Below, piece by piece: positions 7,038-47,800 of a DNA stretch of 64,000 nt. Made by a program: the position numbers and the translations under genes. The notes under the pieces were generated by a model that was not told the origin of the DNA, searched no databases, and saw nothing but the letters and a program-made list of their open reading frames with translations. How positions within the stretch are numbered: the stretch's first letter is position 1; every line of letters begins with the position of its first letter. The stretch lies in the NCBI GenBank assembly GCA_964016885.1, contig OZ024749.1:13764001-13828000 (forward strand). Reading direction: 5' to 3'. Origin of the DNA: Eledone cirrhosa. Taxonomy: Eukaryota.

Positions 7038-7323
7038 ATTGAAAGACTGAAGAATAACATGGTCAACAGTACAAAAAAGGGTTTTATTTACAGTATTAAC
7101 AATTGTTTCACTGATTAAGTTGTCTTAAAATTGCTGAACACTTGAAGCTGTGCCACTCAGTCCTTCTGATGATCTGGTTAAGCTAACAACGTATTGAAAA
7201 TTGAGTGGCACAGCTTCAAGTGTTCAGCAATTTTTAGACAACTTAATCAGTGAAACAATTGTTAATACTGTAAATAAAACCCTTTTTTGTACTGTTGACC
7301 ATGTTATTCTTTACTCTTTCGAT
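7038..7323. repeat. Inverted repeat, about 120-bp arms
   Basis: 7038-7159 versus 7202-7323. Confidence 0.9.
7158..7270 (+). ncRNA. Hammerhead ribozyme motif within a fold-back element
   Basis: CTGATGA at 7166; ctggttaag pairs with cttaatcag; GAA-ACAATTGT-T at 7252-7263. Confidence 0.5.
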
Positions 7324-8104
7324 ATTATTACTCCAAGATAAACTTACATAGGGATGCAAGAGAACTCATAAACTCGCCACCTACGGAAACCTCTTGTTGA
7401 GTCAAACAACGCCGTACGCTAAAACTATCCACAATGCGAAGTATTCACAACCTCTAACTGGATTACCTATAACGATATTTTGTTATCCCTTATATACATA
7501 GCTGTCGAAACTGCCGGAGCTAAGCCGGGGTTCTGACTCTTTTCGTATATATATATTATATATATAAAGTTAAGAAAAAGATTATTTAAAAAAAATAAAA
7601 ATACAAACGGACACAGAACTCCAAGGTCGAGGCCGTTGAGGTGGACTTAGGCAGTTTCGACCCATACTAACGGAATAGTTGGTGATTTTGTAACCTTAAA
7701 AGTATCCAACTCAATTCCTTCATGCTCTCCACCATTGCAGTCCCACATGCTTACTGCTCTGTAACTTTCATTGTACCTTAGCACAACAAATACAGGTTCG
7801 ATTTGTCGAATGCCTTTTTACTTAACCCTATCGTCTTGGCTTTCGTGGGTTGAACATTTTACTCTCAGACACCCAATTAAGTTAAACCCTTCGTAATCTA
7901 CGACGATTTTTTTTTTATAAACACAAAATGTAGACACCATCCCCAGGCCAAGGTATTCCGTACTTCTCTGTATTGTTTCAGAAAGGAGGGATAAACATGC
8001 CAATCTATGTCTAGAAGCCCGAGCAACGCCAGGCCATTCTGCTAGTATATATATATATATATATATATATATATATATATATATATATATATATATATAT
8101 ATAT

Positions 8105-44800: not shown

Positions 44801-47800
44801 TAATTTTTTCATATGTATACATGTAGATATGCTGCCCTCATTCTTTGGCTTGAAATTTTAAGCTATTAGATAGATACCTGCCAAAGCTGAATGCCTAAAT
44901 GTTCCCTTATTTCTTCATTTTTTTCTCGTAGAACTATCTAGAACAAGCTTTTCTATGAGCTTTTAGTGAGAGCCTTTAGTGTCTGTAGATGTTTAAGTTA
45001 TTTTAGTACATTTTAGAAGCAACCATATAGTGAGGTCAAGCTTCAAGCAATCGCATATAGCAATCAAGCTTCGAGCCAAGTACAGAGCCACTGTAGTACA
45101 CCTGGAAGCAACCAGGTAGATTGCTCAAGCTTGAAGCAAATGGATAGAACAATCTTGCAGCAACATGCCAGATCAGACAATTTTCAAAGCAACAAGTTTC
45201 TTCAATCCACGGGACAACCACCAGATAGATGCCTGCAGATCCCTCTTGAAACAACCAATCTTGAAGCAACTAGTCAGCTCAAGCAATCTTAAAACAACCA
45301 GATAATCAAACCAATCCACCTTGAAGCAACCAGGTAGACCAAACTAAACCAACTTGAAGCAACGGGATATCAAGTATGTGGAGCTAAAAAACATAGGCAA
45401 AGAAAATTCCTGCTAGCTTTTCTTGTGTTTAATTCCATTGCTTTTTCTTACAATTGCTGTCGTTTCACTTCAAAGGTATGTTTCAGGTTTTGCTGCAGTA
45501 TATGTATATATATATATATATACATAAATACATATATATACTTATATATATATATATATATATATATATATATATATATATATATATATATATATACACA
45601 CACATATATATATATGACAATCTTTTTTACTTTTCCAACAAGGAGGCTGGACTGGTGTAATTCCTTAAAGGTTTATTATACTATGAATATTTCAATGACC
45701 GGGTACAGTATGTATCCGGTGACATCATGAGGTGTTCGAAATTTAACAAAGGAATATAATCCATGGGGCTGAAAAGGCAGAGACCGAACTAGAAACTGCT
45801 AAATATGTGGTTGCCTTCTTGTCTCTCTGCCTTTTCAGCCCTATGGATTATATTCCTTTGTTAAATTTCGAATACCTGATGATGTCACCGGATTCATACT
45901 GAACCCGGTCATTGAAATGTTCATAATATAATAAACCTTTAAGGAATTACACCAGTCCAACCTCCTGTTATTTTATAGTAATGTGTATATATATATATAT
46001 ATATATATATATATATATATATATATATATATATATATATATATATCATAGATTTATTTCTCCAATTGAAGTTGTCTCTAGTTTTGTCTTTAGAAACAGA
46101 AGACAAATAGGTTTGTCTTAGTCTATTTCTAAAAGTTACCCAACTTTCTAGAAATTGCTCAGCTTTCTCTAGTTTTTGCTGCATTTTTTAGACATTTTCT
46201 GCTGCTTAAATATTGATAGTGTTGTTGTTGTTGTTGTTGTTGTTGTAGTTGTTGTTATTGATGTTGTTGTTATTGTTAGTATTGTTGTTGTTGATATTGT
46301 AGTTATTATTGTTAGTATTGTTGTTGGTGCTGTTGTTGATATTTTTGTTGTTGTTATTGTTACTATTGTTGTTGTTATTGTTAGTATTGTTGTTGTTGTT
46401 GTTGTTGTTGTATTTGTCCAAGTTATTTTTGATATTGTTGCTTTTGTTGCTGCTGTTGTTGATATTGTTGCTGTTGTAGTTGTTGTATTTGCTGCTGTTA
46501 TTATATTTGTCATTGCTGTTGTTGTTGTTGTTGTTGTTACTGTGAGGGAGATGTGACAGCTAGGTGGTGGGGGAAGATGAGGAAGAGAGAGGGTAAGGAT
46601 GGGATAAAGGGGAAGGGGAAGACAAAGAGAGGGCAGAGGAGAGAAAGAGGTGACAAAAAAGAGAGAAGTATGTGGCAAAAGTGGGAGGGAGATAATGGGA
46701 AAGTGAGTGGGGAAGAGGGAGGGAGAGACAGAAAAGAGAGAGAGAAACATGTAGTAATAGTGTGAGAGAGAGGGTTGAAAGGGTTCTTTCATATTTGGTC
46801 TAAGGTCAAAGGTCAAAAACTAAAAGTGAAAGGGGAAAGATATAGTAGTAGTGTATGAGAGGGGCCAGGGTTGAGGGGGGAATTTCCTTTCATATTTGGT
46901 CAAAGACTAAAGGTGAAAAGTGGAAGGTGAAAGGTCGGAGACTTATGGTGAAAGGTGAAAGGTCAAAAACTAAAGGTGAAAGGTCAGCAATGAAAGAGAA
47001 AGGAATTTGGCAACGGACAGAACCATTTCCAGGAAGTATTCTACATTTTTTATTAAGTATTTATATATTTATCTATTGTCCCTTGATTCTGCAGGTGTAT
47101 TCCTGTATATAAATATATCTGATGACTGTGTATGTCTGCATGTATGTCTTCTGTGAGTGTGTCATGTGTATCTATGCATGTTTGTGAACTTCACTGTGTG
47201 TGTTCCTGTATGTGTATATGTGTGTATTCTACGCACCATGCTGCAAACAATCTTTAAATGTACCCTAAACACACATTTGGGATTGGCTGAGGGTCACCCA
47301 TAGGAGTTATGGACCCAACTCCATTATCGATCTGCTCTTCCGACTGGCGATGTGACACAAAGTATAGTGTTTGCTGTGATTTGTGAGATGGGTGTATATA
47401 TAAGCATCGGCCCTATTTTATGTGTGTGGTTGTATATGGGTGTTGTAATGCAATAAGTAGGGCAGCTTTGTGCGTATAGCTGCCATACCTATTGCACTCC
47501 AACACTCACATGAGAAAGAGAAATAAAAGATGAAAGATAAAGGTAGAGAGCAAGAAGTGGAAGGAGTGGAAACATTTTTTGAGAAAAACACATGTTTATG
47601 TATATATATGTATATATATGTATATATATGTATATATATGTATATATATGTATATATATTCTGGTACTACAAACAGGTATGCTGACAGCCGAATGTTTAG
47701 GTCCTTCAGGTCTTGTACCTTGTCATGTAAATAGAAACGCTGATGCAACCCAAAGTGTGAGGGTGACCCCAAGAGAACCAGGCAAACACTTAATTCAGAT

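What the first reader, a model, noticed from the sequence alone, without database searches (positions are those of the whole stretch)
7158..45930. About 10 Penelope-type hammerhead ribozyme motifs from several families in one locus
Seen: CTGA(T/A)GA...GAAA cores with pairable stems I and II and short, often palindromic stem III at 7166(+), 9357(-), 15926(+), 18448(+), 24203(-), 31108(+), 39696(+), 39983(+), 42155(-) and 45876(+). Established: Penelope-like elements carry minimal type I hammerheads that can cleave as dimers through the palindromic stem III. Inference: most of these lie in short non-coding units in (TA)n with no ORF nearby. They may be an undescribed set of non-autonomous, ribozyme-bearing (retrozyme-like) elements mobilised by the GIY-YIG Penelopes seen here.
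Basis: partly seen in the sequence, partly recalled or inferred. Interest (0 to 1): 0.72.

Follow-up and report, generated by a model that had tools for sequence, protein, structure and literature searches.

The report
Penelope hammerhead stumps plus two passengers
The ten motifs match the self-cutting "hammerhead" RNA pattern but belong to a known kind of jumping gene: seven are broken-off tail ends of protein-coding Penelope-like elements, and three come from two protein-free repeats that are likely copied by Penelope enzymes; cutting itself is untested.

Summary
All ten sites are copies of six genome-wide repeat families whose majority sequence forms a type I hammerhead; two further families (C, H) were missed. 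Seven sites (A x4, D, E, G) are 5'-truncated 3' ends of coding Penelope-like elements: longer copies run into GIY-YIG or RT-GIY-YIG frames. Three sites are ORF-less. F (24203) is a 339-nt wrap-around unit, a typical animal retrozyme candidate. B (39696, 45876) is a 2.0-2.2-kb unit between hammerhead-bearing direct repeats. Both show compensatory stem changes and the Penelope footprint (two 3' ends, inverted partner, microsatellite flanks). An intact 832-codon Hydra-type element in the genome is a possible helper. So "most are non-autonomous" fails, but the class is present. It is a published kind (PMC4209133, PMC7229834, bioRxiv 2026.07.22.740005), and this scan noted the same mix on other DNA. 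No RNA data; cleavage untested. Oddities: a U4A core, long helix II, a spliced copy.

The parts
7040..7500 (+). Family G insertion: inverted short arm (about 7040-7160) plus direct copy with tail. Hammerhead core 7166-7172, about 87-nt helix II domain, GAAA at about 7252, palindromic helix III ACAAUUGU, predicted cut GUU after 7263. 3' end of a Hydra-type coding element.
9201..9382 (-). Family E: old copy (74% to the best relative), core at 9357, 72-nt helix II, palindromic helix III ACACGUGU, predicted cut GUA at 9267. 3' end of a GIY-YIG-coding element.
15888..15979 (+). Family A stump, G12 mutated to A: predicted dead
18420..18579 (+). Family A stump, helix I deletion and helix III mismatch: predicted dead
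24036..24216 (-). Family F: 181-nt fragment of a 339-nt ORF-less wrap-around unit (retrozyme candidate); hammerhead at 24203 decayed, predicted family cut AUC (position 24172 here)
24586..24706 (+).
31088..31234 (+). Family A stump with an intact minimal hammerhead (extra A after A9, 4-bp helix II, no loop 3, predicted cut GUU after 31135). 3' end of a Neptune-type coding element.
35280..36440 (-). Family C insertion (missed as hammerheads): GIY-YIG remnant 36010-35618(-), 3' region with a 774-nt intron precisely removed (junction at 35536 and, in the inverted arm, 36122), U4A-core hammerheads at 35434(-) and 36219(+)
39660..39810 (+). Family B (subfamily 1) stump with an intact hammerhead at 39696 (U.U at 10.1/11.1, predicted cut AUA after 39745); end of a 2-kb ORF-less unit
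39950..40113 (+). Family A stump, G12 mutated to A and helix II mismatch: predicted dead
41163..41341 (+).
42075..42883 (-). Family D: GIY-YIG remnant 42883-42446, 274-nt 3' region, hammerhead at 42155 with G12 mutated to A. 5'-truncated Hydra-type coding element.
45641..45783 (-). Family B (subfamily 2) inverted arm; core at 45731 with G5 mutated
45824..45982 (+). Family B (subfamily 2) direct arm; hammerhead at 45876 with the first helix I pair broken

Best explanation
The ten motifs are ends of six separate hammerhead-bearing repeat families: seven are 5'-truncated tails of protein-coding Penelope-like elements and three come from two protein-free units (339 nt and about 2 kb) that are likely copied by Penelope enzymes, with self-cleavage predicted, not shown. 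Mechanism. A Penelope RT-GIY-YIG protein likely nicks AT-rich DNA and starts reverse transcription at one of two sites just 3' of the hammerhead (from PMC11167929; the two 3' ends and microsatellite flanks are shown here). Copying usually stops after 100-400 nt (shown: ragged 5' ends), so nearly every insertion keeps a hammerhead, often with an inverted partner (shown). An RNA step is shown for family C by exact loss of a GT-AG intron. F and B carry the same end signals without a gene, and their copies wrap round into the previous unit (shown), as expected from tandem or circular RNA templates (inferred). After insertion the copies decay; six of the ten are predicted dead, and the density reflects many independent hits on TA-rich introns of a filamin-repeat gene, not a functional cluster (inferred).
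For: Coding parents: D, 15 of 29 copies have a same-strand GIY-YIG hit within 1.4 kb upstream, and L145 has RT motifs. A, 4 of 71 copies have a Neptune-type hit 565-665 nt upstream, and L306 joins RT motifs, a C-x4-C-x2-C linker and GIY-YIG to the same 3' region. G: L113 carries a GIY-YIG end, and L116/117 and L123 share that stretch and its 3' region. E: L334 and L340/341. ORF-less units: F, 11 of 25 loci exceed the 339-nt unit by wrapping round (two are the same insertion); the longest is 690 nt, 12 of 30 loci picked with a long query hold two cores, the longest stop-free frame is 68 aa, GC is 40%, and the circular fold has z = -5.3 against 60 shuffles. B, 0 of 90 copies have a PLE hit upstream; 4 loci give core-to-core units of 1956, 2005, 2122 and 2188 nt between 330-550-nt direct repeats with no hit to either parent protein at E 0.1. 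Covariation: B helix I C-G 48 / U-A 23, helix II G-C 35 / A-U 34, 0 of 500 shuffles reach the score, slid controls pair 26-35% against 90%; F helix II G-C 29 / A-U 39 / G-U 17 / A-C 3. Footprint: inverted pairs with one short and one tailed end in B 7 of 11, G 5 of 6, H 7 of 9, C 3 of 4, D 2 of 3, F 2 of 3. Helper: several 832-codon open frames among 150 scored matches; L393 has RT and GIY-YIG motifs.
Against: No cleavage or RNA data. Single window copies fold no better than shuffles (z -1.67 to +0.59). No Rfam hammerhead among the rows shown. Pfam does not recognise the parent proteins at its cut-offs (best GIY-YIG E 0.053), so their identity rests on motifs read by eye, on Atlas look-alikes and on the clade descriptions in PMC8557442. 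Covariation in B and F reflects a few subfamily changes inherited by many copies; A, C, D, G and H show almost none, and E's long helix II gave no consensus fold. Each search scored only the best 40 of up to 3737 candidates, so rare coding parents of B or F, or ORF-less subfamilies of A, D, E or G, could be missed. No specific helper is tied to B or F by sequence.
Confidence: 0.85

Rival explanations
1. One reading: most sites are short non-autonomous retrozyme-like elements with defined ends.
For: True for F and B. H has a preferred 5' start (15 of 25 loci at -65). Most A copies are under 300 nt and show no coding sequence.
Against: A, D, E and G have ragged 5' ends and the longest copies enter coding sequence. 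I saw no wrap-around in the A, D or G loci read.
Confidence: 0.07
2. All sites are random truncations or local duplications of coding Penelopes; B and F are deletion products or DNA-level tandem duplications, not mobile units.
For: No long tandem arrays of F were found (maximum about 2 units). Only 4 complete B units were read. No RNA was seen.
Against: F wraps round at dozens of unlinked loci with varied 5' starts and two 3' end zones. The ORF-less B layout recurs in units 63-80% alike on different contigs. No coding remnant in the B units.
Confidence: 0.05
3. The sense-strand hammerheads are kept to regulate the host filamin-repeat pre-mRNA by intron cleavage.
For: Filamin-repeat exons lie on + between about 23 kb and 52 kb, and the intact copies at 31108 and 39696 are in sense between them.
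Against: Six of ten copies are decayed, both orientations occur, the 31108 type has no helix III loop and is predicted to need a partner, and each family has many copies elsewhere. In Xenopus 8 of 9 tested dimers did not cleave (bioRxiv 2026.07.22.740005).
Confidence: 0.03

Closest known systems
Minimal type I hammerheads in pLTRs of metazoan Penelope-like elements (Cervera and de la Pena 2014, PMC4209133; read parts 1-2 of 4)
   Same: Type I topology, an extra base between A9 and 10.1, absent or palindromic helix III, many sequence families per genome, mostly single motifs from truncated elements, and inverted pairs 100-700 bp apart.
   Different: Families E and G have 72-87-nt helix II domains, far above the 7-8 bp described there; family C has a U4A core and a stable helix III.
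Animal non-LTR retrozymes (PMC7229834, abstract and passages; bioRxiv 10.64898/2026.07.22.740005, parts 1-3 of 5)
   Same: Family F: 339-nt unit, GC 40%, no ORF, type I hammerhead with 6-bp helix I and 4-bp helix II, more-than-unit copies, highly self-paired circle predicted, coexisting Penelopes.
   Different: No long arrays found (up to about 2 units); copies are dispersed with Penelope-type double 3' ends; circular RNA and cleavage untested. Family B is 2.0-2.2 kb, above the 51-972 bp reported (that survey capped the period at 1000 bp).
Hydra-clade Penelope-like elements (Craig et al. 2021, PMC8557442; section 11 and passages)
   Same: The intact element L393 has RWR (RWK-like), DKT, a CxCx5C linker and CxxC/CxH around the endonuclease end; C, D and G remnants are 30-35% identical to it; (TA)n flanks; hammerheads present.
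   Different: Described there mainly from cnidarians with canonical hammerheads; here cores vary at position 4 (U4A in C, U4C in the L393 family). No tree was built.
Neptune/Nematis-type Penelope-like elements (PMC8557442, passages)
   Same: Family A parent: RT motifs, CX2-5CxxC linker, GIY-YIG with the CCHH-like residues, microsatellite flanks.
   Different: Neptune versus Nematis not resolved; no intact copy examined.
Non-autonomous PLEs with pLTRs such as Chlamydomonas MRC1 (PMC8557442, passage in section 10)
   Same: Family B: no ORF, pLTR-like direct repeats, head-to-tail layout.
   Different: B carries a hammerhead and no autonomous partner with similar 3' end was found.

Membership tests
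Type I hammerhead ribozyme | Core C3 U4 G5 A6 N7 G8 A9 / G12 A13 A14 A15 / U16 H17 (criteria in PMC3088659) | tested here: met
   Majority sequence of A, B, D, E, F, G, H. Not met in window copies 15926, 39983, 42155 (G12A) and 45731.
Type I hammerhead ribozyme | Same core, family C | tested here: not met
   A at position 4 in 91% of 33 distinct rows; 'U4A' has 0 occurrences in the main text of PMC3088659.
Type I hammerhead ribozyme | Helices I, II, III pair, with compensatory change | tested here: met
   B and F show two-sided changes; A, C, D, G, H keep pairs but are too uniform to covary; E's long helix II is unsupported.
Type I hammerhead ribozyme | Self-cleavage after NUH | not testable with these tools
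   Needs in vitro transcription; no RNA run was available.
Animal non-LTR retrozyme (family F) | 150-450-bp unit, GC under 50%, no ORF, type I hammerhead | tested here: met
   339 nt, GC 0.40, longest stop-free frame 68 aa.
Animal non-LTR retrozyme (family F) | Tandem arrangement with at least two hammerheads | tested here: met
   12 of 30 loci selected with a 571-nt query hold two cores 339 nt apart; maximum about 2 units, no long array.
Animal non-LTR retrozyme (family F) | Expressed as linear and circular monomer RNA | not testable with these tools
   No RNA holder listed.
Animal non-LTR retrozyme (family F) | Loop 1 - loop 2 tertiary contacts; target-site duplications | not tested
   Flanks are mostly microsatellite; contacts not examined.
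Animal non-LTR retrozyme (family B) | Unit of a few hundred bp | tested here: not met
   1956-2188 nt in 4 of 4 complete units; filed as a non-autonomous Penelope-like element that works like a retrozyme.
Non-autonomous element (families A, D, E, G) | No coding sequence in the longest copies | tested here: not met
EN+ Penelope-like element insertion | 5' truncation, inverted partner, optional 3' tail on one end, AT-rich target | tested here: met
   the tail class was not defined for A.
Hydra clade (C, D, E, G parents; L393) | RWK-like, DKT, CxCx5C linker, C-terminal GIY-YIG without CCHH | tested here: met
   Read by eye in L393/L394; C, D, G known only from remnants 30-35% identical to it, E only through a 29% hit to the C remnant.
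Hydra or Neptune clade | Placement in an RT phylogeny with reference elements | not tested
   No reference sequences were held.
Neptune/Nematis clade (A parent) | CX2-5CxxC linker before a GIY-YIG with CCHH | tested here: met
   L306 translation; Atlas look-alikes 0.96 with GIY-YIG.

The most novel reading that the evidence does not exclude
This genome runs an ecosystem of Penelope passengers that extends the retrozyme class up to 2-kb ORF-less units (family B), and its Hydra-type elements have spread widely with hammerheads that break the rules (U4A or U4C cores, U.U at the base of helix II, 70-90-nt helix II domains). These would then be protein-assisted ribozymes or binding scaffolds for the element's own RT, and a young intact Hydra element makes that directly testable.
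Probability: 0.25. Interest if true: 0.55.

Novelty: new member of a known kind. Interest (0 to 1): 0.3.

Why it matters
It adds a likely cephalopod example to a known pattern and sorts a crowded locus into coding stumps and true passengers. The role of the Penelope hammerhead is still open (dispensable for insertion in vitro and protein-dependent in PMC11167929). A genome with an intact young helper, ORF-less 339-nt and 2-kb units and natural core variants is convenient material for testing trans-mobilisation and whether cleavage matters. The locus itself shows no sign of host function.

Tried and rejected
Rfam scan: only microsatellite-driven miRNA matches and two tRNA-like hits in the 150 rows shown. 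Sequencing runs: no RNA holder listed; the three runs are contigs of one sample, laid on 35000-46200 only, useful just for loose ends at the family C splice junction. Single-copy folding gave no signal. RNAalifold on 16 E copies found no helix II consensus. My first descriptor capped helix II at 45 nt and so missed 9357. Direct-repeat output was swamped by a coding-like satellite. A shared cis-motif among tails: GAG[TC][GC]CT[CT]TT occurs in B 14 of 90, C 10 of 34, D 5 of 29, H 11 of 37 and none of A, E, F, G; pairwise tail alignments reached only p 0.03-0.04 for 2 of 28 pairs, chosen after the fact, so it is a lead only. PLE hits upstream of F (3 of 94) were rejected as neighbours: in L241 the hit is separated from the unit by unrelated and TA-rich sequence. 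Descriptor hit 42521(-) rejected as chance within a coding remnant. Lunse et al. 2017 (dimeric PLE hammerhead variants) is not held; I saw only its citation and a review's summary, so U4A or long-helix-II variants may be described there. Supplements of all papers were not read; those of PMC8557442 list hammerheads per family and may cover cephalopod elements. Earlier-findings look-ups by sequence for F and B and by words for U4A returned nothing.
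Full report
Setting. The window is G000:C9:13764001-13828000 in a 3.0-Gb assembly, 38% GC and rich in TA repeats. Exons of a filamin-repeat gene lie on + between about 23 and 52 kb. An octopus-like host is my inference from genome size and repeat content and from earlier AI notes; no call names it.

Observation. All ten coordinates hold CTGA(T/A)GA. Searches of the genome with each site returned many relatives: first-look candidates, which are not copy numbers, were 2209 for A, 2199 for B, 13 then 67 for E, 1102 for F, 443 for G, 1463 for D and 783 for H, with the best 40 or fewer scored each time. 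The majority sequence of each family forms a type I hammerhead. A relaxed descriptor finds 6 hits in the window against 0.58 in shuffles. Copy by copy, 31108 and 39696 are intact; 9357 and 7166 have intact cores closed by a GAAA 72 and about 87 nt away; the other six are decayed. Families C (U4A core) and H, and an inverted B arm, were missed. Rfam shows no hammerhead among the 150 rows listed of 208, and single copies fold no better than shuffles, so the call rests on family comparison.

Seven sites are stumps of coding elements. Family A copies share a 3' end and have ragged 5' ends. Searching with the upstream part reached copies whose 3' region follows a frame with RT motifs, a C-x4-C-x2-C linker and a GIY-YIG domain; 4 of 71 hammerhead copies held have that domain 565-665 nt upstream. 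For D, 15 of 29 copies have a GIY-YIG hit upstream, including the window's own, and L145 reaches RT motifs. For G, L113 carries a GIY-YIG end, and L116/117 and L123 share that stretch and its 3' region. For E, L334 and L340/341 do. The C, D and G remnants are 30-35% identical to an intact 832-codon frame with the Hydra-clade motifs listed in PMC8557442 section 11. Pfam does not recognise these proteins at its cut-offs, and no tree was built, so clade names are motif-based.

Three sites are ORF-less. Family F: two cores lie 339 nt apart in L093 and L079, and sequence upstream of the hammerhead is the unit's own 3' part. Mapped on the repeated unit, 11 of 25 loci are longer than one unit; 30 loci chosen with a 571-nt query span 409-690 nt, end at unit positions 162-220, start at many positions, and 12 hold two cores (this set is biased to long copies, and two are the query and its neighbour). 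The unit has no frame above 68 codons, 40% GC and a circular fold at z = -5.3. Family B: walking upstream in two steps led back to another hammerhead. Four loci give units of 1956-2188 nt between direct repeats, with no match to either parent protein; 0 of 90 copies have a PLE hit within 1.4 kb upstream.

Structure support. On 78 B copies, 89.8% of cells pair; helix I has C-G 48 / U-A 23 and helix II G-C 35 / A-U 34; no shuffle of 500 reaches the score, and slid controls pair 26-35%. The middle of B's helix III varies mainly among UG, UA, AU and UU, mostly self-complementary, as a dimer model would want (read by eye). F has G-C 29 / A-U 39 / G-U 17 / A-C 3 at one helix II pair. These are a few subfamily events counted many times. 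The other families are too uniform, and E's long insert gave no consensus fold.

Mechanism. In PMC11167929 (parts 1-2 of 4) a purified Penelope protein cuts AT-rich DNA and starts reverse transcription at two internal RNA sites, which explains the optional tail; its hammerhead cleaved only with protein and was not needed for insertion. Here B, C, D, F, G and H each have a short and a tailed 3' end, most short ends run into dinucleotide repeats (B 30 of 38, F 25 of 35), and inverted pairs are mostly one short plus one tailed. Eight of the ten sites are within 250 nt of a TA run against 33% by chance. The window's C copy lacks a 774-nt GT-AG intron that L304 retains, with matching loose ends in independent contigs: direct evidence of an RNA step. 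Shown: truncation, wrap-around, double ends, splicing, covariation. Inferred: priming mechanism, trans-mobilisation of B and F, circular intermediates, cleavage.

Comparison. PMC4209133 already reports thousands of minimal hammerheads per genome in many families, mostly single and probably from truncated elements. PMC7229834 defines the 150-450-bp retrozymes, including in a mussel, and the 2026 preprint derives them from pLTRs. U.U at 10.1/11.1 and U4C are known natural variants (PMC3088659 passages). Searches pairing octopus or cephalopod with Penelope, ribozyme, hammerhead or retrozyme found no description of such families; the giant squid paper lists 235 hammerhead loci without analysis. 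Lunse et al. 2017 and all supplements were not seen. Earlier notes of this scan report the same mix in this and other genomes; they are unchecked and not counted as support.

Verdict. Real motifs, known class, new families. The 2-kb passenger, the U4A core and the long helix II domains are the parts worth a bench test. Interest 0.3.

Noticed in passing
window 35280-36440; L304:5761-6998(-): Family C Penelope copy with a 774-nt GT-AG intron precisely removed from its 3' region; most other copies held retain the acceptor (13 acceptor, 5 donor matches in loci).
   Followed up: yes
window 35434(-), 36219(+), 41255(+): Hammerhead-like motif with A at core position 4 in 91% of 33 copies, U.U at the base of a 3-bp helix II and a stable helix III; very abundant in loci fetched for other families.
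   Followed up: partly
L393 (G000:C2:397513501-397519500), L394: Young Hydra-type Penelope family, 96-100% identical over the query in 150 scored matches, several with a full 832-codon open frame; its hammerhead has a U4C core.
   Followed up: partly
window 24586-24706; L308-L332: Family H: young hammerhead family with a preferred 5' start 65 nt before the core (15 of 25 loci) and frequent inverted pairs; no parent found; possibly a third non-autonomous unit.
   Followed up: partly
tails of families B, C, D, H: A shared 10-nt motif in the tail region, a possible RT-binding signal; weak and found after the fact.
   Followed up: partly
window 23012-52435 (+): Exons of a filamin-repeat gene (Pfam Filamin hits at 23012, 36566, 38819, 49605, 52088); most hammerhead copies lie between them.
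   Followed up: partly
window 16380-17534(-), 40136-41044, 49900-51108, 53880-54368: Fragments of a non-LTR retrotransposon with RT and a PHD-like finger (Pfam RVT_1, PHD).
   Followed up: no
window 54552-56541: Tc1/mariner-type element with 250-nt inverted ends and transposase remnants.
   Followed up: no
window 10070-10355 and 48011-48296: Two inverted copies, 95% alike, each with a tRNA-like Rfam hit (10261-10318, 48046-48109): probably a tRNA-derived SINE.
   Followed up: no
window 10829-15392, 25773-26789, 57361-57948, 61394-63296: Long minisatellite arrays (30, 9, 18 and 21-nt periods) that give stop-free frames of low-complexity sequence.
   Followed up: no
window 41504-42027: 211-nt inverted repeat, 91% complementary, next to the D element; MITE-like or fold-back.
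   Followed up: no
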